A stretch of DNA of 64,000 nucleotides, from sequence record PZ445511.1. One strand, 5' to 3'. Positions 41,178 through 49,063 of this stretch are shown piece after piece (positions within the stretch are counted from its first letter, which is position 1; every line of letters starts with the position of its first letter). The notes beneath the pieces are model-generated. The model searched no databases. It had not been told where the DNA came from and saw only the letters and a program-made list of their open reading frames with translations. This stretch comes from a phage. The position numbers and the translations under genes are program-made.

Positions 41178-41411
41178 CTACACATCTAGTTCAACGATCT
41201 CCCAATCGTCGGCCAGAGCTTCTTCTAGACTAAGATTAACTACTGTTACTATCGGGCGTACGCAGTGTATACTAGGCCACTCATATAGCTTAACAGTGTC
41301 ACTATCTACATCAAATTTTAACAAGAATGTAAAGTCTCGGGTGTTCTTCCAGCTATCTCGCTGGAGATATTTTACGTCTCCAGCTTTTAACAGATCAGTT
41401 AGTTTACTCAC
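41178..41411 (-). CDS. Hypothetical protein
   Basis: 77-aa ORF preceded by an early promoter. Confidence 0.4.
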   Translation of the reverse strand: MSKLTDLLKAGDVKYLQRDSWKNTRDFTFLLKFDVDSDTVKLYEWPSIHCVRPIVTVVNLSLEEALADDWEIVELDV

Positions 41412-42176: not shown

Positions 42177-42410
42177 TTACGATTCTTTGAGCAAAGAAGC
42201 AAGTTCAGCATAGACTTTATCTAACTCAAAGCCAATGCGAAGAGACACACGAGTCTTCCGTTGTTTAAGTAACCATATGGAGACGTTAGGGATGCCAGCG
42301 AGACGAGGTGGTACAACCCTACATAGTTTCTCCGCAGTATCGTAAACAGAAGTTTTACGTTCTTTTACGGGAAACTTCCTTGTTTCCCACTTTTTATTCT
42401 TCACTATCAT
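42177..42410 (-). CDS. Hypothetical protein
   Basis: Small ORF; start placed at ATG 42410 after GGGAG RBS. Confidence 0.35.
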   Translation of the reverse strand: MIVKNKKWETRKFPVKERKTSVYDTAEKLCRVVPPRLAGIPNVSIWLLKQRKTRVSLRIGFELDKVYAELASLLKES

Positions 42411-45183
42411 TTCTAGCTCCCAATTCAGCAAGAGCTTCCTCGTGCATCTGACGTTCTTCGTCTGTCATAAACTTAACTGGAATCGGCATACATTCGATCT
42501 TACAGTAAGTTCTGTACCAGTCCACAATCTTTTCCGTATCCAGATCTTTACCGATACCCATCATGCCAAGATACATACGAGCATATTTTGGGTTAGCACT
42601 CTGACCTGTCTTAAGGAAGAAATCCTTCTTCTTATTCTTAAGAGCTTCAATAAACGGTTTGATTGTTACGTTTGAACACTTCTTGATATCTTCCCAGAAC
42701 ATATCGTGCATCTTATGGAAAAATGCAGCTCGATCATTCGGTTTATCCTTGATATACTGTTCAACATGTTCCACTGTTACATCTTTAATAGAATCCAGAT
42801 GATAATAGCGAACCAGAAGTAACTTGGCTTCATATGCATCTGCATGACGTGGTGCGCAGTATTCAGGAGTTGAGTGCAAAATAGCTTTGATTCGCTCTTC
42901 TGTATACTCTTTGCCTGCACCTTCGATAGTTCCCCAGCTTTCACTGAAAATATCAATAGTTGCACCTTGATCGAGAAGATAATAACGCAAAGTACTGGTA
43001 TAGTTTCTAGATTCCAGCTCACGACGACGTGCGTACAGTTGCTGAGCTAACTCAATCCAACCCTCGTCAATATTATATTGCTCGGAACCCGCAGAGAATC
43101 CACTCGTAGATTTATCAATAAAATAATAAATGTTCTGAGCACCACGGTCGCGCCTGATTGCTTGGAAACGCATGTTTGGCGCTTGGTTTGAGGTTCTAGT
43201 GATTACGAATACGTTATCAAAATAGTTAAAGTCAACACCACTCGTTACAGATGGACTACATAACAAACAATCAATCTGTTGATCAATTAGCTCATTAGTT
43301 GTATAATCCAGAATACGTCGAATATCTACGTCTGATGTAGAGTTTGAGTGAATTTCTTTAACTAACGCACCAGTATTACGACGTAATGCCATTCCCTTTT
43401 CATTCAGTTCATCCGGTCCACAGTCAGATACTAGGATTGATTTCTCACCCATCTCTAGAGATGTTTGAAGTGCGACCCAAATACTGGATTCATCAGGGAA
43501 TTCATAAGCATGAGCTTTCGCCAGCATTTTACGGTGATGATTATAGAATGCAACTGGTTTATCAAAATCAATCAAAGAACCATAGGCTTCAATCGTTTCT
43601 GCACTGATATCACCATCAGATAAGATCACCGTTTTAGCAGTAATAAGAATATCGCGAAGGACCTGTATACATTCACGACGGTTTTTAACAACCGGAGCGA
43701 ATAACAGATCATTCATTACTGCGTCACATTCATCAATAAAGATCGTATCAATCTGACCCACAAAGCTCTTGAACTTATGGATAGAGTGAATAGTTGAAGA
43801 CATACGATCAATGGCACCACGTTTGAAGTTCAGCATATCAACTGACTTATCATACTGACCAGCACCGAATTTCTTCGCGTTTGAAGATACAAGTGCCCTA
43901 GTATTCGTGATTGCAATAAAGTTTCCTGGAAGAACACCTGCATCTAGCCACTTAGTTACTGCTGTGGTTTTACCTGTACCAAGACTTGCCTTAACAAATG
44001 TTAAATGTCCTTTTGGTGGTACAATGTTAATTTTCAGGTATGGAACTTCTGGCGGTGAATCTGTGTCCAGACGCTTTAGTGGTACACCTTTTAAGTTGGG
44101 TGGAATCTCACGTTTGGAGTTATTCACAAAGGCTTTTAGAGCCTGCTTACGACCGTTATTAAAGTAATCTTGAATATTACGACTATTATCTTTAGTTGCA
44201 ATATATTCAGATAAAGCTGGTTTAATCTCACGTTCTAACCACGTAAAGTCAACACCATCTTCTAACGCTCTGTGATAAAGTTTTGGGATAATACGCAGGT
44301 ACACCCCATCCTCAGCTTCTTCTAGTTCGCTGATGGTTTCTTCCACTTTATCAGATGCAGCTTTCTTGCCTTTAATTTGGTCAAGTAAGGAGTAGAATTC
44401 TTCTTTAAACTCACCTCTAGTTGTTTCAAAGTCAACTAGGTTATTGGGTAGATTCACTTTCGAACCCTTAACATACACAAGACGTGGTTTATTCTCCGCT
44501 TTAAACGGATCGACTATACCATCATCAAACAAGGGATCTGCGAAATAGTGAAGCTGAACAGAAGAATAATAAGCTAAGTCAGCAATATCAAAGCCATACT
44601 TTTGCTTACTACTGTCATTGATAGATGTAAATAAGAACTTTAACTGTCCCTGCGTTACCTTGACATTAGATTCTAGCATTAAGTGCATTCGGATACCTGG
44701 TTTTAATCCAGCCGAAGACGATGCATGGGCAATAAACCCTGCATCAAGAGGAAACATATCCTCACTAATACTATTCAACATCTTAATAATATGACGTGCC
44801 ATGCCAACAAGATTAAACTTGTCATAGCCACCAGTATCTACAATACCATCCACGTCCATAGCGATAATATGACTAGGATTGGATACGTTAAAGTTTCCTC
44901 TGGTACGACGCACATTATCTTTTGGAGCTAGACATTTACCACGAATAGCTACAATATGCGGGTCTTTGGTAAGACGACGCATGATAGGTAACATTTCAGC
45001 AAGGTTTTGCGGGTCAAGTTCTTCAAGTACATCAAATTTGAAGGGCATGGAAGCTGGTTTACCTTCTGGATGCTCTTTAGAGAATCGCTTTGCAAAGGTA
45101 TAATCTTCCACTTTGATCTCTTTCCAGATGCCAGTGGCTTTATCTCTGGAAAATCCTGCGTGACCTTGTAGGATTGAGAACAC
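42394..45183 (-). CDS. Large ATPase/helicase, putative replication initiator (T5 D2-like)
   Basis: Walker A GTGKTT, DECD Walker B; start uncertain (GTG 45183 after AGGAG; the ORF track extends to 45306). Confidence 0.6.
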   Translation of the reverse strand: MFSILQGHAGFSRDKATGIWKEIKVEDYTFAKRFSKEHPEGKPASMPFKFDVLEELDPQNLAEMLPIMRRLTKDPHIVAIRGKCLAPKDNVRRTRGNFNVSNPSHIIAMDVDGIVDTGGYDKFNLVGMARHIIKMLNSISEDMFPLDAGFIAHASSSAGLKPGIRMHLMLESNVKVTQGQLKFLFTSINDSSKQKYGFDIADLAYYSSVQLHYFADPLFDDGIVDPFKAENKPRLVYVKGSKVNLPNNLVDFETTRGEFKEEFYSLLDQIKGKKAASDKVEETISELEEAEDGVYLRIIPKLYHRALEDGVDFTWLEREIKPALSEYIATKDNSRNIQDYFNNGRKQALKAFVNNSKREIPPNLKGVPLKRLDTDSPPEVPYLKINIVPPKGHLTFVKASLGTGKTTAVTKWLDAGVLPGNFIAITNTRALVSSNAKKFGAGQYDKSVDMLNFKRGAIDRMSSTIHSIHKFKSFVGQIDTIFIDECDAVMNDLLFAPVVKNRRECIQVLRDILITAKTVILSDGDISAETIEAYGSLIDFDKPVAFYNHHRKMLAKAHAYEFPDESSIWVALQTSLEMGEKSILVSDCGPDELNEKGMALRRNTGALVKEIHSNSTSDVDIRRILDYTTNELIDQQIDCLLCSPSVTSGVDFNYFDNVFVITRTSNQAPNMRFQAIRRDRGAQNIYYFIDKSTSGFSAGSEQYNIDEGWIELAQQLYARRRELESRNYTSTLRYYLLDQGATIDIFSESWGTIEGAGKEYTEERIKAILHSTPEYCAPRHADAYEAKLLLVRYYHLDSIKDVTVEHVEQYIKDKPNDRAAFFHKMHDMFWEDIKKCSNVTIKPFIEALKNKKKDFFLKTGQSANPKYARMYLGMMGIGKDLDTEKIVDWYRTYCKIECMPIPVKFMTDEERQMHEEALAELGARNDSEE

Positions 45184-45745
45184 AACAATACTCCTATGTT
45201 GGTTATTCGAATATCTTTCTTTAGGACTATTCAAAAGAATAGAACAACTATTACTACCATTTACACAAACATTAATCATCATCAAGCAGTATGAATAAGT
45301 TATCATACCTCAGTGCTGCGCTCTCTTAACTCTTATCCAGATCAGAACCTAGGTCATTGGCCGCTAAGCCAATTCTGATTGCCCTCACTATCCTATTGGT
45401 AGGTGGCTACTGGACGTGTCACCATTCGCTGCTCTTTTCGTTCGCACCCCCATATAAAGCTCTGCCTATATAACGAGCTAAATATGCACGGTTTGGATTT
45501 ACCTTTCCGAATTCAGGGTACGCAGATCACTTAATTGATAATTAACTAATGCAGTATAAACACTAGTAATAGTTAAAACAACCCTTAATGGGGCAGCCTA
45601 ACTGTTCCGTATTGCGGACTGTAAACAAGAAAAATTAGCAAAATCAATTTTTACTAATGTCTCTCAATTCAATATAAATATTATATCAAGATTTTGAGCA
45701 TCCTGCAAGTAAAATTTTTCCGAAGGTGCTATCAGTGTCTTTGAG

Positions 45746-45777
45746 CACAGAGAAAACCGAGCCAAAATGACTCGGTA
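45746..45777 (-). terminator. Rho-independent terminator after the 131-aa paralog
   Basis: ACCGAG-loop-CTCGGT hairpin followed by TTTTCTCT on the - strand. Confidence 0.55.
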
Positions 45778-45799: not shown

Positions 45800-46195
45800 T
45801 CAATCATCATTTAGACCTGGGACATAGATCCCAATGCGATTTAATTGACCTTTAGCTTCTTCGAGAATATCTTCGGTGTACTCCCAAATATCATCTTCTA
45901 CTTGCAAAAGATAAGGGGATTCACCAGTTTCGGGGTCACGTGTAATGGCTAAGCCACGTGGATGGAATATAGAGAAGTTGAGGGCAACAATCAAGCCCAT
46001 GCTGGACAATTCATTCCAGTCAGCTTCCCAACCATCATCTTCATCTTCGTCCACAAAGACACCTACACTAGGGTCTGTTACAGAAGTAAACGGAAATGTT
46101 ACACTAACCTTGTCAACCCCCAACCAACGTGCAAGGAGCCCCTCAGCACGCTCTACCAAACTAGGATCTATCTGACGCCAAAATACTTGTTCCAT
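45800..46195 (-). CDS. Hypothetical acidic protein (tandem paralog 1)
   Basis: 131 aa; shares W-ELxxMGL-xALN...TGE-P...PGL pattern with the adjacent 142-aa ORF. Confidence 0.5.
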   Translation of the reverse strand: MEQVFWRQIDPSLVERAEGLLARWLGVDKVSVTFPFTSVTDPSVGVFVDEDEDDGWEADWNELSSMGLIVALNFSIFHPRGLAITRDPETGESPYLLQVEDDIWEYTEDILEEAKGQLNRIGIYVPGLNDD

Positions 46196-46204
46196 TCTGC
46201 CTCC

Positions 46205-46633
46205 TTAAGCAGTTAAACCTGGGATCATATACCCGAAACGACGAAGTTTCTGAATCCCCTCATTTACTTCCTCGGGCGAATATGACCAGCCCTCACTTTC
46301 ATTTACCTGGAAAGCAGGAGCTTCACCAGTGCGATAATTTACAATAAGACGGTGATTTGCAGGCATAAACAGCTTATGGTTCAAGGCAAAAACCAGACCC
46401 ATTTCATCGAGTTCTTTCCAGTCTACAATCTCTTCTACTCCCTCCCCTAAATCCACGCTAACTCCAATACACGGAGCTTCCTCTAGTGGGCCTTTAAAAG
46501 ACAGGAAGATATCGTTATTCTCACACCAAATCTTAAGCAGATTGATGGTTTCATTGTACATACCATTAGGGAGAGAACGCCAGAAGTTGAGGAGCATAGG
46601 ATTTACCTCTTTCATGAAAATATTATTGAACAT
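46205..46633 (-). CDS. Hypothetical protein (tandem paralog 2)
   Basis: 142 aa; paralog of 45800-46195. Confidence 0.5.
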   Translation of the reverse strand: MFNNIFMKEVNPMLLNFWRSLPNGMYNETINLLKIWCENNDIFLSFKGPLEEAPCIGVSVDLGEGVEEIVDWKELDEMGLVFALNHKLFMPANHRLIVNYRTGEAPAFQVNESEGWSYSPEEVNEGIQKLRRFGYMIPGLTA

Positions 46634-46635
46634 GC

Positions 46636-47176
46636 TTATACCTTAAGTTTCTGAAGAGCCTTACACATTTCAAGATCTGGACTAAATTCCAGCATATAGC
46701 TTATAGCATTTAAATCTTGAAGGTTTATTCCAGTCCTGCCATTTACAATAACAGTAGGAAATTGGTACATCATAGCACCAGCATCATCTAGGACACACCA
46801 ATGCTTGAGCTTATATTTTTTCGACGAAACGTAAAACAGAATTACCCCGAGATAAACCACCTCCAGTAAAATCTGTTGTACCAAGGAAACGATCGATCAA
46901 ACCGAGCCCGGTCATAATCTGAACGTTCTCCATCTCATTTCGTACAGAAAACCATGAAGATACCCCAACAATCATTATTGGGGATGGCTTAAGAAAGTTC
47001 TGAAAAGCCTGGAGTAATGGCTTGTAAACCCAATCACCACCAAAGAATAGCTTCTCACTATCTGGAGCATGATGGTGAGAGATGCTCGAATTGAGCACCC
47101 CATCAATATCCAGGAAAATCACAGGAGTATTACTTATTTCCACCAGTAGCATCCCACGTCCAGACTTTAACTTCAT
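46636..47176 (-). pseudogene. HAD-superfamily phosphatase (nucleotidase-like) split by an apparent frameshift at an A6 run
   Basis: N-terminal ORF has HAD motif I (IFLDIDGVLN); downstream ORF in another frame has a DD motif (CVLDDAG); the frames join at GAAAAAATA (about 46814-46822). Confidence 0.45.
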
Positions 47177-47296: not shown

Positions 47297-47479
47297 TTAA
47301 AAATCTTCTTCACCATATTCTCCCTCCTTAATAAGGAACTCTTTCCATTCTGCTGTATCCTCATAGATAACGCAGAAATCATCACTCTTCCATGAGAAGT
47401 CATCAGTAGCAAATTCAAAACGGTAGCACCAACTACCGTCTGGCCATACTAAAAGATCACACATGCTTTTCTGGGACAT
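47297..47479 (-). CDS. Small hypothetical protein, translationally coupled to the Sir2-like gene
   Basis: GGAGGG RBS and ATG embedded in the last codons of the Sir2-like ORF; 60 aa. Confidence 0.35.
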   Translation of the reverse strand: MSQKSMCDLLVWPDGSWCYRFEFATDDFSWKSDDFCVIYEDTAEWKEFLIKEGEYGEEDF

Positions 47480-48308
47480 AAATATTTCCCTCCATAAAAG
47501 CTTCAACTTGATCAATAAAGTGTTTATTACCAAAAACTTCGGCAGCTCCAGCACGCCATACAGTAACACCACGTTTCTCATATTCAAGCTGTTCATCATA
47601 GCGAACTTGAGGGTTAACAACCATCATCTTAGTTCCACGACATACAGCAGGGAATAGTTCCCAGTTGAAGTCAATCACTTGGTTGCTACAACCTACTACA
47701 ATAACCATATCATTGCTAGTAAGTGTATCAAACAGGTTAATCTGACCCATATACCACGGAGCCGTCTCACCAAAGAATGTTACGTTTGGTTTTACCCATT
47801 CGTAATCTTCAGGAACAATTGCAGTGTATCCAACATCTTCGATGATTTGATTGCGACCCCGACGATAGATCACCTCTTTCAAGTACCCGTGAGCGTGAAT
47901 GATTTCATCACGAGGGATACCAGCACGTTCCAGAAGGTCATCAACGTTAGTAGTGAAGTTCTTCACGCTATCCGCACCATAACGCTGGAACCATTCTGCA
48001 ATTCGCAGATGGGCAATGTTAGGCTCAACAGTCTGTAATTCCTGACGACGCATGTTGTAGAACTCATGAGTCTTGAGATACAGATCGTTACCCTCTTCAT
48101 CAATGCCAGGGAAACGAGCACTGAAGTAGTTAGGATCATCTTCACCACAGAAGCGACGGAAGCCAGCTTCAAAGTTAGGCAAGCTACATACTTCCTCTAG
48201 ATCGTACTCATCCCACAAAGATTTTCCACTAGCAGTATCAGTACGGAAAGCACGAACACCACTATCAACACTTAAACCAGCACCACTAACAATGATTAGT
48301 CTACGCAT
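47457..48308 (-). CDS. Sir2-like (sirtuin family) NAD-dependent protein
   Basis: GAGLSVDSGVRAFR, TTNVDDL, HG, PNVTFFGE sirtuin motifs; no CxxC...CxxC zinc module. Confidence 0.7.
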   Translation of the reverse strand: MRRLIIVSGAGLSVDSGVRAFRTDTASGKSLWDEYDLEEVCSLPNFEAGFRRFCGEDDPNYFSARFPGIDEEGNDLYLKTHEFYNMRRQELQTVEPNIAHLRIAEWFQRYGADSVKNFTTNVDDLLERAGIPRDEIIHAHGYLKEVIYRRGRNQIIEDVGYTAIVPEDYEWVKPNVTFFGETAPWYMGQINLFDTLTSNDMVIVVGCSNQVIDFNWELFPAVCRGTKMMVVNPQVRYDEQLEYEKRGVTVWRAGAAEVFGNKHFIDQVEAFMEGNIYVPEKHV

Positions 48309-48965: not shown

Positions 48966-49063
48966 AGCTTTCTCCTCTCAAATTTATAAATCAATTATAC
49001 ATAAGTTTTAGCTCGAAAGCAAATAAAATAAAAGCCAGGTCGACTAGCAACCTGGCTGATTCA

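What the first reader, a model, noticed from the sequence alone, without database searches (positions are those of the whole stretch)
45800..46633. Tandem diverged paralogs of unknown function
Adjacent - strand genes of 131 and 142 aa share a conserved C-terminal pattern (W-EL--MGL--ALN...TGE-P...QV...W-Y...E...L-R-G...PGL) with divergent N-termini. Tandem duplication with divergence is typical of host-interaction or anti-defence genes. They sit next to the HAD and Sir2-like genes, forming an accessory cluster between the replication genes and nrdD.
Basis: seen in the sequence. Interest (0 to 1): 0.5.

Follow-up and report, generated by a model that had tools for sequence, protein, structure and literature searches.

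The report
Paired DUF7415 genes of T5-like phage
Two neighbouring small acidic genes in this T5-like phage are real, ancient duplicates (orthologues of T5.106 and T5.107) of a catalogued but uncharacterised phage domain family, DUF7415; one copy keeps the family's conserved residues, the other has lost most of them, and their function is still unknown.

Summary
Genes A (45800-46195, 131 aa) and B (46205-46633, 142 aa) on the minus strand are paralogues: 31% identity over 124 ungapped residues, E = 8e-21. The similarity runs the full length, not only the C-terminus. The window is an Epseptimavirus (T5-like), and the genes are orthologues of T5.107 and T5.106.

Both belong to Pfam DUF7415 and PHROG 2502, which have no assigned function and no literature. 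Each half of each protein matches the 53-residue Pfam model, but my independent tests of this internal repeat are weak.

The canonical domain is a 60-90 aa acidic protein found in P2-like prophages and T4-like phages, in many unrelated gene slots. AlphaFold models are confident, and nothing in the PDB resembles them.

The B-then-A order is fixed in about 520 enterobacterial T5-like genomes and in Sugarlandvirus. A-type copies keep 11-13 of 14 family-invariant residues; B-type copies keep 5-6. Both are under purifying selection.

This is an old, fixed pair, not an arms-race expansion. My best guess, at low confidence, is a co-translated canonical/degenerate hetero-oligomer that binds a conserved host target or small ligand early in infection. 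An anti-defence role is neither supported nor excluded. Interest is modest.

The parts
45800..46195 (-). Gene A, 131 aa, orthologue of T5.107. It is the canonical DUF7415 paralogue, with pI 4.05 and net charge about -20.
   Evidence: ORF. Pfam DUF7415 98 bits and PHROG 2502 E = 2e-58. 69% amino-acid identity to T5.107. Charge.
46205..46633 (-). Gene B, 142 aa, orthologue of T5.106. It is the degenerate DUF7415 paralogue, with pI 4.65. An alternative start at Met13 (130 aa) is used in some public annotations.
   Evidence: ORF. Pfam DUF7415 125 bits and PHROG 2502 E = 1e-59. 73% identity to T5.106. 393-nt annotations in KKP 3953 and PMBT36.
45899..46021 (-). C-terminal DUF7415 module of A (aa 59-99). 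It keeps 13 of the 14 residues that are invariant in single-domain relatives (W, S, G, L, N, H, P, G, A, R, G, S, D).
   Evidence: (57.9 bits alone).
46043..46189 (-). N-terminal module of A (aa 3-51). It matches the Pfam DUF7415 model but is very degenerate.
   Evidence: 44.4 bits, model positions 1-50. Independent support is weak.
46298..46429 (-). C-terminal DUF7415 module of B (aa 69-112). It keeps only 6 of the 14 invariant residues; the His, Gly, Ala, Arg and both Ser positions are replaced.
   Evidence: (56.6 bits). It scores 33-35 bits against my single-domain HMM, where A-type modules score 73-82 bits.
46439..46591 (-). N-terminal module of B (aa 15-65), which matches the Pfam DUF7415 model.
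   Evidence: 73.3 bits, model positions 1-52.
46200..46204 (-). GGAGG Shine-Dalgarno sequence for gene A. It directly abuts the TAA stop of gene B, and the B-A gap is 9 nt. The stop of the HAD gene lies 2 nt before the ATG of B.
   Evidence: Read from the sequence. In Sugarlandvirus the two genes overlap by 4 nt.
45756..45776 (-). Intrinsic-terminator-like hairpin (ACCGAGTCATTTTGGCTCGGT followed by a T-rich tail) about 24 nt after gene A; it marks the end of the operon.
   Evidence: T5 has an annotated terminator at the equivalent place.
46636..47176 (-). Context: HAD_SAK_2-type phosphatase gene (T5.105 orthologue) immediately upstream. In this window a +1 homopolymer change splits it into two ORFs.
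47457..48308 (-). Context: Sir2-family gene (T5.102 orthologue) in the same transcription unit. It is present wherever DUF7415 is present at this locus in the Demerecviridae lineages inspected.
49033..49057 (-). Context: terminator-like hairpin after nrdD. It marks the upstream boundary of the accessory operon that ends with B and A.
   Evidence: Sw2 annotates a terminator at this place.

Best explanation
Shown:
- Genes A and B are an ancient tandem duplicate of a two-module protein of the DUF7415 family (T5.107 and T5.106 orthologues).
- They are the last two genes of an early accessory operon: nrdD terminator, small ORFs, Sir2, HAD, B, A, terminator.
- They are tightly packed. The Shine-Dalgarno sequence of A abuts the stop codon of B here, and the two genes overlap by 4 nt in Sugarlandvirus.
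- A keeps the conserved polar and glycine residues of the canonical roughly 55-residue DUF7415 module. B has lost most of them. The N-terminal modules of both are degenerate.

Inferred:
- The canonical module is a small acidic alpha-alpha-beta-beta unit that works as a dimer or oligomer.
- The T5-type proteins are fused pseudo-dimers.
- A and B are made in similar amounts and assemble into a hetero-oligomer in which the C module of A carries the functional surface and B is a scaffold or pseudo-subunit.
- The complex is not an enzyme of any recognisable class. It acts early in infection by binding and sequestering or blocking a conserved host component or a small ligand. This is a host-takeover or counter-defence type of function that does not depend on its gene neighbours.
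For: - Paralogy: E = 8e-21 over the full length.
- Family: Pfam DUF7415 and PHROG 2502 for both genes, and all four halves exceed the Pfam cut-off on their own.
- Canonical against degenerate: A-type C modules keep 11-13 of 14 invariant residues, B-type keep 5-6 of 14, and this holds in T5, this window and Sugarlandvirus. HMM scores are 73-82 bits for A-type in this lineage and T5 against 33-35 bits for B-type.
- Fixed order and coupling.
- Co-retention in about 520 genomes: 549 records, 1067 places, compared with 542 enterobacterial T5-like records found with the origin-binding protein.
- Purifying but relaxed selection.
- Strong acidity: A has net charge -20, and the family median pI is 4.8. 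This argues against nucleic-acid binding.
- Function independent of neighbours: single-domain relatives sit after gpA, between gpL and gpX, between Nu1 and gpA terminase genes, between nrdD and nrdG, and after rnlA.
- High conservation of polar residues (N, H, R, S, D) across hosts, which suggests a conserved target or ligand.
- Confident compact fold with no catalytic-fold relative.
Against: - There is no experimental datum and no paper on the family.
- Hetero-oligomer formation was not modelled or measured; no multimer prediction was available.
- The internal repeat rests mainly on the Pfam model. My own single-domain HMM does not see the N halves. Profile-profile support is weak: hhalign P = 1.4e-3, and 4 of 200 column shuffles reach the same score.
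- Invariant His, Ser, Asp, Asn and Arg residues in a 55-residue module could equally mark a small oligomeric enzyme or a ligand pocket.
- Near-universal retention in enterobacterial T5-like phages and dN/dS below 0.25 would also fit a housekeeping role.
- There is no hit in PADLOC, although that library holds defence proteins, not anti-defence proteins.
Confidence: 0.35

Rival explanations
1. DUF7415 is an accessory or regulatory subunit of phage nucleotide or NAD metabolism. It binds a nucleotide or docks onto enzymes such as NrdD, Sir2, the HAD phosphatase or MazG-type pyrophosphatases. The T5 pair would then serve the Sir2/HAD/NrdD module.
For: - Fusions to the dATP/dGTP pyrophosphohydrolase domain PF04447 (2 representatives) and to thymidylate kinase (1).
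- In Jiaodavirus the gene overlaps the 3' end of nrdD and precedes nrdG.
- In Slopekvirus it lies near NudE and dNMP kinase.
- In Aeromonas T4-like phages it lies near td and denA, with a HAD_SAK_2 gene 2 kb away.
- In Demerecviridae it is present at the nrdD/origin-binding locus only where Sir2 is also present.
Against: - Most single-domain copies are in P2-like prophages, in slots with no nucleotide-metabolism genes: after gpA, between gpL and gpX, and, in a lambda-like contig, between the terminase subunit genes.
- Fusion partners are heterogeneous: ASCH/DUF3850, Cox, ClpX zinc finger, DUF551, PGDYG.
- Early regions of T4- and T5-like phages are full of nucleotide-metabolism genes, so adjacency there is weak evidence.
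- The Sir2 co-occurrence rests on only five lineages.
Confidence: 0.2
2. DUF7415 is a DNA-mimic type anti-restriction protein. In this reading, the highly acidic surface of an oligomer imitates DNA and blocks restriction-modification or other DNA-binding defence enzymes.
For: - Net charge is -20 over 131 residues for A and -9 for B, and 73-76% of family members have pI below 5.
- The genes are small, early-expressed and widespread in accessory slots.
- By eye, one representative (P0104) carries an N-terminal Cys-rich region that resembles Lar-type restriction-alleviation proteins. No family search confirmed this.
Against: - The conserved residues are mostly not acidic (W, N, H, P, G, R, S), unlike typical mimics.
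- T5 is known to evade type I restriction by other means (own knowledge, not tested here).
Confidence: 0.1
3. DUF7415 is part of an RNA-repair or RNA-modification counter-defence module. It would work together with the HAD_SAK_2 phosphatase, RNA ligase or ASCH-type RNA-binding domains.
For: - The upstream gene is a HAD domain of the type found in 'Swiss Army Knife' RNA-repair proteins.
- In Aeromonas T4-like phages the DUF7415 gene directly follows rnlA.
- DUF3850/ASCH domains are fused to DUF7415 (2 representatives) or encoded two genes away in Aeromonas P2-like prophages.
Against: - The HAD gene is absent from the Sugarlandvirus and Hongcheonvirus loci, which keep DUF7415.
- The acidic protein is unlikely to bind RNA.
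- Most contexts contain no RNA-repair genes.
Confidence: 0.08
4. A and B are simply two independently acting, partly redundant paralogues. In this reading, B is drifting towards loss or towards a new, unrelated function, and no hetero-oligomer forms.
For: - B has lost most family-invariant residues.
- Hongcheonvirus manages with a single A-type copy.
- No interaction evidence exists.
Against: - B is under stronger purifying selection than A (dN/dS 0.09 against 0.21).
- B is retained with A in essentially every enterobacterial T5-like genome and in Sugarlandvirus, in the same order and with tight coupling.
- This is not the pattern of a decaying copy.
Confidence: 0.15

Closest known systems
T5.106 and T5.107 of Escherichia phage T5 (NC_005859), both annotated as hypothetical proteins
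   Same: They are direct orthologues (73% and 69% amino-acid identity). They have the same order, the same operon position between the HAD gene (T5.105) and a terminator upstream of the replication-origin-binding gene, and the same lengths (142 and 130 aa).
   Different: Nothing functional is known for the T5 genes either. The T5 record notes only similarity to a P2-type ORF91 and to Aeh1 ORF299c. In this window the upstream HAD gene is frameshifted.
Pfam DUF7415 (PF24187) and PHROG 2502: single-domain proteins of 60-90 aa in P2-like prophages and T4-like phages
   Same: The C-terminal module of A matches them with 13 of 14 invariant residues, and the profile-profile probability is 99.9%. The predicted secondary-structure order (helix, helix, strand, strand, helix) is the same.
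   Different: The T5-type proteins carry an additional degenerate N-terminal module and occur as a canonical/degenerate gene pair. The single-domain proteins are solitary and sit in many different gene slots.
Small oligomeric phage 'sponge' proteins for immune nucleotide signals (Tad1, Tad2, Acb2); analogy only, from my own knowledge
   Same: They are small, widespread across unrelated phages as autonomous accessory genes, have strongly conserved pocket-type polar residues, and act as oligomers.
Acidic DNA-mimic anti-restriction proteins (Ocr, ArdA); analogy only, from my own knowledge
   Same: Both are strongly acidic, small, early phage proteins.
   Different: There is no fold match. The conserved positions in DUF7415 are largely non-acidic.

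Membership tests
Pfam DUF7415 (PF24187) | Score against the family HMM above the gathering cut-off (27 bits). | tested here: met
   A scores 98.2 bits and B scores 125.5 bits, each with 2 stretches. The four halves scanned separately score 44.4, 57.9, 73.3 and 56.6 bits.
Pfam DUF7415 (PF24187) | The conserved residue set of the canonical single-domain members: W, S, G, L, I, N, H, P, G, A, R, G, S, D (14 invariant columns in 51 sequences). | tested here: met
   The C module of A keeps 13 of 14. The feature is NOT met by the C module of B (6 of 14) or by either N module (3-5 of 14, from an unreliable alignment).
PHROG 2502 (T5-type two-module proteins) | Full-length match to the 134-position profile. 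| tested here: met
   A: E = 2.3e-58 over residues 1-130. B: E = 1.3e-59 over residues 11-142.
Internal tandem repeat (two DUF7415 modules per protein) | The N half is homologous to the C half or to single-domain relatives, shown independently of the Pfam model. | tested here: inconclusive
   My single-domain HMM gives 3 bits or less on N halves. hhalign of N halves against the single-domain profile gives P = 1.4e-3 over 49 in-register columns, but 4 of 200 column shuffles reach that score. The secondary-structure order is compatible.
Known anti-phage defence proteins (PADLOC-DB) and NCBIfam named families | Match to any profile. | tested here: not met
   No hit at E of 1 or below. Anti-defence libraries (dbAPIS, AntiDefenseFinder) were not available.
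KH-type nucleic-acid-binding fold (considered because of the beta-alpha-alpha-beta-beta-alpha order) | Significant structural superposition on KH domains, and a GXXG loop. | tested here: not met
Nucleotide-signal sponges (Tad1, Tad2, Acb2) and DNA mimics (Ocr, ArdA) | Sequence or fold relationship to a solved member. | tested here: not met
Nucleotide-signal sponges and DNA mimics | Binding of a signalling nucleotide, or of a DNA-binding defence enzyme. | not testable with these tools
   This needs ITC or DSF with ligands, or pull-downs.

The most novel reading that the evidence does not exclude
DUF7415 is a new fold family of small oligomeric phage proteins that bind, and so neutralise, a conserved small-molecule signal or a conserved host immune or housekeeping protein in Gammaproteobacteria. 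In T5-like phages it would have evolved into a co-translated heteromer: one paralogue (A, T5.107) keeps the binding site, and the other (B, T5.106) together with both N-terminal modules are degenerate scaffold copies. It may act in concert with the co-inherited phage Sir2.
Probability: 0.15. Interest if true: 0.7.

Novelty: already known. Interest (0 to 1): 0.3.

Why it matters
The pair is one of the few uncharacterised gene sets retained in essentially all enterobacterial T5-like phages. These include many therapeutic candidates against Salmonella, E. coli and Klebsiella.

Its core domain recurs in P2-like prophages and T4-like phages, with a confidently predicted fold that has no solved relative. 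Knowing its target would fill a gap in T5 early biology and could reveal a new host-takeover or counter-defence principle.

As it stands, the finding is a correct but unsurprising recognition of two members of a catalogued domain of unknown function. The new points from this analysis are:
- the split into a canonical and a degenerate paralogue;
- the age and fixity of the duplication;
- the co-occurrence with Sir2 at this locus;
- the breadth of gene contexts in which single-domain relatives occur.

Tried and rejected
- **Independent proof of the internal repeat.** BLAST of the halves, an HMM of single-domain relatives and hhalign with shuffle controls gave only weak support.
- **Large proteins among the exhaustive-search hits.** These are a TIR-NACHT-WD40 protein and VCBS or cadherin-like repeat proteins. 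They are summed weak matches of repeats to the 'DG-W-Y' segment, not homologues.
- **PDB searches.** Single-sequence and profile searches gave nothing relevant; the LRR hits to residues 15-42 of B report no individually significant stretch ('stretches 0') and I treated them as chance matches.
- **Foldseek against afdb50.** The library was not available. BFVD returned only other DUF7415 proteins.
- **Literature.** No paper mentions DUF7415, T5.105, T5.106 or T5.107. The HIDEN-SEQ essentiality preprint covers T4, Bas37 and Bas54 but no T5-like phage. I did not open the CRISPRi-ART paper, which mentions phage T5 four times, so it was not checked for data on these genes.
- **Public product names for these genes.** 'Tail tube protein', 'exonuclease' and 'MazG-like family protein' have no support from any profile or fold search here.
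- **Guilt by association with nucleotide metabolism.** I considered this seriously but downgraded it after the census of 80 viral contigs showed mostly P2-type structural or replication slots.

Full report
**Observation.**
The window carries two adjacent minus-strand ORFs: A at 45800..46195 (131 aa) and B at 46205..46633 (142 aa). BLASTP between them gives 31% identity over 124 ungapped residues, E = 8e-21. The alignment covers almost the whole of both proteins. The N halves alone are still significantly similar (27% over 48 residues, E = 8.6e-6), and the C halves more so (37% over 70 residues, E = 5.5e-17).

**Source and orthology.**
The region is 98-99% identical to Salmonella and Escherichia Epseptimavirus genomes and about 80% identical to Tequintavirus. 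The genes are the orthologues of T5.107 (A, 69% amino-acid identity) and T5.106 (B, 73%). Both are 'hypothetical protein' in the T5 reference.

After the nrdD terminator (49033-49057) come several small ORFs, a Sir2-family gene (47457..48308), a HAD_SAK_2-type phosphatase gene (46636..47176), then B, then A. A terminator-like hairpin follows at 45756-45776, and beyond it lies the replication-origin-binding gene.

The genes are tightly packed. The HAD stop codon lies 2 nt before the ATG of B. The GGAGG Shine-Dalgarno sequence of A directly abuts the TAA stop of B.

**Family and architecture.**
Both proteins belong to Pfam DUF7415 (98 and 125 bits against a cut-off of 27) and to PHROG 2502, which has no assigned function. 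They have no NCBIfam or PADLOC match.

Pfam reports two stretches in each protein. When I scanned the four halves separately, each matched the whole 53-position model above the cut-off (44, 58, 73 and 57 bits). By Pfam's model, each gene is therefore a tandem of two DUF7415 modules.

I could not confirm this strongly by independent means:
- An HMM built from 114 single-domain relatives does not detect the N halves.
- hhalign of the N halves against that profile gives an in-register 49-column alignment at P = 1.4e-3.
- However, 4 of 200 column shuffles score as well.

The AlphaFold model of B (pLDDT 85.9, pTM 0.81) shows the same order of elements in both halves: short helix, long helix, two strands. 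I treat the internal repeat as probable, not proven.

**Wider family.**
An exhaustive profile search of 1.84 billion representatives found 164 hits at E of 1e-3 or better. About a dozen are large repeat proteins (WD40, VCBS-like) that match spuriously through summed weak repeats.

The rest fall into two groups. A few are two-module proteins of about 130-160 aa. Most are single-domain proteins of 60-170 aa that match only the C-terminal module.

The consensus is IDWNELSxLGLIxRINxEILHPLGLAxxRDPETGxSPGxLVADDGxWEY. In 51 sequences that are 40-86% identical to the reference sequence, 14 positions are invariant (W, S, G, L, I, N, H, P, G, A, R, G, S, D). The family is acidic, with a median pI of 4.8. 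A has pI 4.05 and net charge -20; B has pI 4.65 and net charge -9.

**Evolution within T5-like phages.**
A tblastn search with B finds 549 phage records with 1067 places, so nearly every record holds two copies. The origin-binding protein finds 542 enterobacterial T5-like records at 60% identity or more. The pair is therefore essentially universal in that group.

The five lineages inspected at this locus are compared below.

| Lineage | DUF7415 at the nrdD / origin-binding locus | Sir2 | HAD |
|---|---|---|---|
| Markadamsvirinae (T5, this window) | B-type then A-type | present | present |
| Klebsiella Sugarlandvirus | B-type (133 aa) then A-type (131 aa), overlapping by 4 nt | present | absent |
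| Pectobacterium Hongcheonvirus | single A-type gene | present | absent |
| Proteus Novosibvirus PM135 | none; an unrelated 212-aa ORF fills the slot | absent | absent |
| Vibrio T5-like phages | none | none annotated | none annotated |

A-type C modules keep 11-13 of the 14 family-invariant residues. B-type C modules keep only 5-6; the His, Gly, Ala, Arg and both Ser positions are replaced. This holds in T5, in this window and in Sugarlandvirus. It is also reflected in HMM scores of 73-82 bits (A-type, this lineage and T5) against 33-35 bits.

Against T5, dN/dS is 0.21 for A and 0.09 for B. Amino-acid identity of 69-73% compares with 94-98% for the adjacent replication genes. Sir2 (62%) and two small ORFs also evolve fast (dS is near saturation, so the ratios are approximate).

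The picture is an old, fixed duplication in which one copy stayed canonical and the other became a conserved but degenerate partner. It is not a recent or copy-number-variable expansion.

**Gene context outside T5-like phages.**
Single-domain genes occur in very different slots:
- P2-like prophages, downstream of replication gene A. This holds in 29 of 80 viral contigs. DUF3850/ASCH sits two genes away in Aeromonas, and RNase_T and Dam methylase genes flank it in Enterobacter.
- P2-like prophages, between head-completion gpL and tail gpX (11-13 contigs).
- Between Nu1-like and gpA terminase genes of a lambda-like contig.
- Between nrdD and nrdG in Jiaodavirus.
- Near NudE in Slopekvirus.
- Directly after rnlA in Aeromonas T4-like phages.

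Fusion partners among representatives are also heterogeneous: dATP/dGTP pyrophosphohydrolase (2), DUF3850/ASCH (2), Cox, thymidylate kinase, PGDYG, DUF551 and a ClpX zinc finger. There is a nucleotide-metabolism flavour, but the dominant pattern is that of an autonomous, moron-like accessory gene.

**Most likely mechanism (inference, low confidence).**
Four lines of evidence bear on this.
- The domain is small, acidic and confidently folded, and has a dense set of invariant polar residues conserved across phages of Aeromonas, Pseudomonas, Vibrio and enterobacteria.
- It works in many genomic contexts.
- It has no catalytic-fold relative.
- In T5-like phages it is fixed as a translationally coupled canonical/degenerate pair.

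I therefore favour a non-enzymatic oligomeric binding protein. Single-domain forms would act as homo-oligomers. The T5-type proteins would be fused pseudo-dimers. A and B would assemble into a heteromer in which the C module of A supplies the functional surface. The target would be a conserved host protein or a small ligand met early in infection.

Rivals, each with its evidence and refutation test in the structured fields, are:
- a nucleotide or NAD-metabolism accessory subunit linked to NrdD, Sir2 and HAD;
- a DNA mimic;
- an RNA-repair module partner;
- independent, partly redundant paralogues.

**Comparison with what is known, and verdict.**
The genes are members of DUF7415 and PHROG 2502 and orthologues of T5.106 and T5.107, so the feature itself is already catalogued. 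They fail membership tests for KH domains, for known sponges and DNA mimics, and for PADLOC and NCBIfam families.

What this analysis adds is the canonical/degenerate split, the age and fixity of the pair, the co-occurrence with Sir2 at the locus, the breadth of contexts, and the absence of any solved structural relative.

Interest is modest (0.3): a correct observation of an uncharacterised but known family. There is a roughly 15% chance that it hides a new class of phage binding or sponge protein, and that would be considerably more interesting.

Noticed in passing
window 46811-46884 (indel at about 46816-46823): The HAD_SAK_2 gene (T5.105 orthologue) is split into two overlapping ORFs (46811..47176 and 46636..46884) by a net +1 change in an A-run on the coding strand: GAAAAAAT here against GAAAAAC in Sw2. 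The gene is intact (168-179 aa) in T5, Sw2 and the 98-99% identical phages KKP 3953 and PMBT36. This is either a real pseudogene or a homopolymer sequencing error.
   Followed up: partly
window 47212: There is a second single-base length difference from the nearest relatives: a C5 run here against C4. It falls inside the small gene upstream of HAD (T5.104 orthologue, 61 aa in KKP 3953) and changes its reading frame. Two homopolymer indels within 400 bp suggest assembly errors in the source genome.
   Followed up: partly
window 46595-46633: The start of gene B is ambiguous. Met1 (142 aa) is used in T5 and Sw2. Met13 (130 aa), preceded by AGAGG 8 nt upstream, is used in KKP 3953 and PMBT36. Residues 1-12 are conserved across genera, and T5 has Ile at position 13, which favours Met1. 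AlphaFold gives pLDDT below 50 for residues 1-12.
   Followed up: partly
public records matching 45800-46633 (for example JLBYU43, phiP4, GEC_vB_N5, ValerieMcCarty03) and T5.105: Public product names are inconsistent. 'Tail tube protein', 'exonuclease' and 'MazG-like family protein' for DUF7415 proteins have no support from any profile or fold search here. 'Sir2 (NAD-dependent deacetylase)' for the T5.105 gene and for PHROG 18062 conflicts with the HAD_SAK_2 match found for its orthologue in this window. These look like propagated misannotations.
   Followed up: partly
window 47457-48308; also 41184-41411 and 47324-47458: The Sir2 gene (62% amino-acid identity to T5, dN/dS about 0.24), the T5.112 orthologue (46%) and the T5.104 orthologue (56%) evolve much faster than the surrounding replication genes (94-98%). 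The function of the phage Sir2 is unknown. It co-occurs with the DUF7415 genes at this locus in every Demerecviridae lineage inspected.
   Followed up: partly
L020 3042-3680 (Proteus phage PM135); L022 2498-4432 (Vibrio phage D112): The slot between nrdD or PhoH and the origin-binding gene is a variable accessory locus in Demerecviridae. PM135 has an unannotated 212-aa ORF there in place of Sir2, HAD and DUF7415. The Vibrio T5-like phage has a different set of small ORFs.
   Followed up: no
window 45303-45306 against about 45183: The mechanical ORF of the origin-binding gene (42394..45306, 970 aa) is about 42 codons longer at its 5' end than the T5 protein (928 aa), which aligns from 45183. 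The N-terminal extension is probably not translated. A TG-extended -10 element (TGATATAAT, 45680-45688), with TTGCAG 17 nt upstream, sits after the gene A terminator, where T5 annotates a promoter.
   Followed up: no
L010 17760-18041 (Aeromonas phage Aeh1 nrdA.1): In Aeh1 the HAD_SAK_2 gene is followed by a DUF4326 protein (nrdA.1), then denA, rnlA and the DUF7415 gene. HAD_SAK_2 and DUF7415 are therefore within about 2 kb of each other in a T4-like phage as well as in T5-like phages.
   Followed up: partly
L017 4492-7179; L003 7525-8422: In a lambda-like contig, a DUF7415 gene is wedged between the Nu1-like small terminase gene and the gpA large terminase gene, overlapping both. In Pseudomonas P2-like prophages it sits between gpL and gpX. 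These are unusual insertion points inside otherwise tightly conserved late operons.
   Followed up: no
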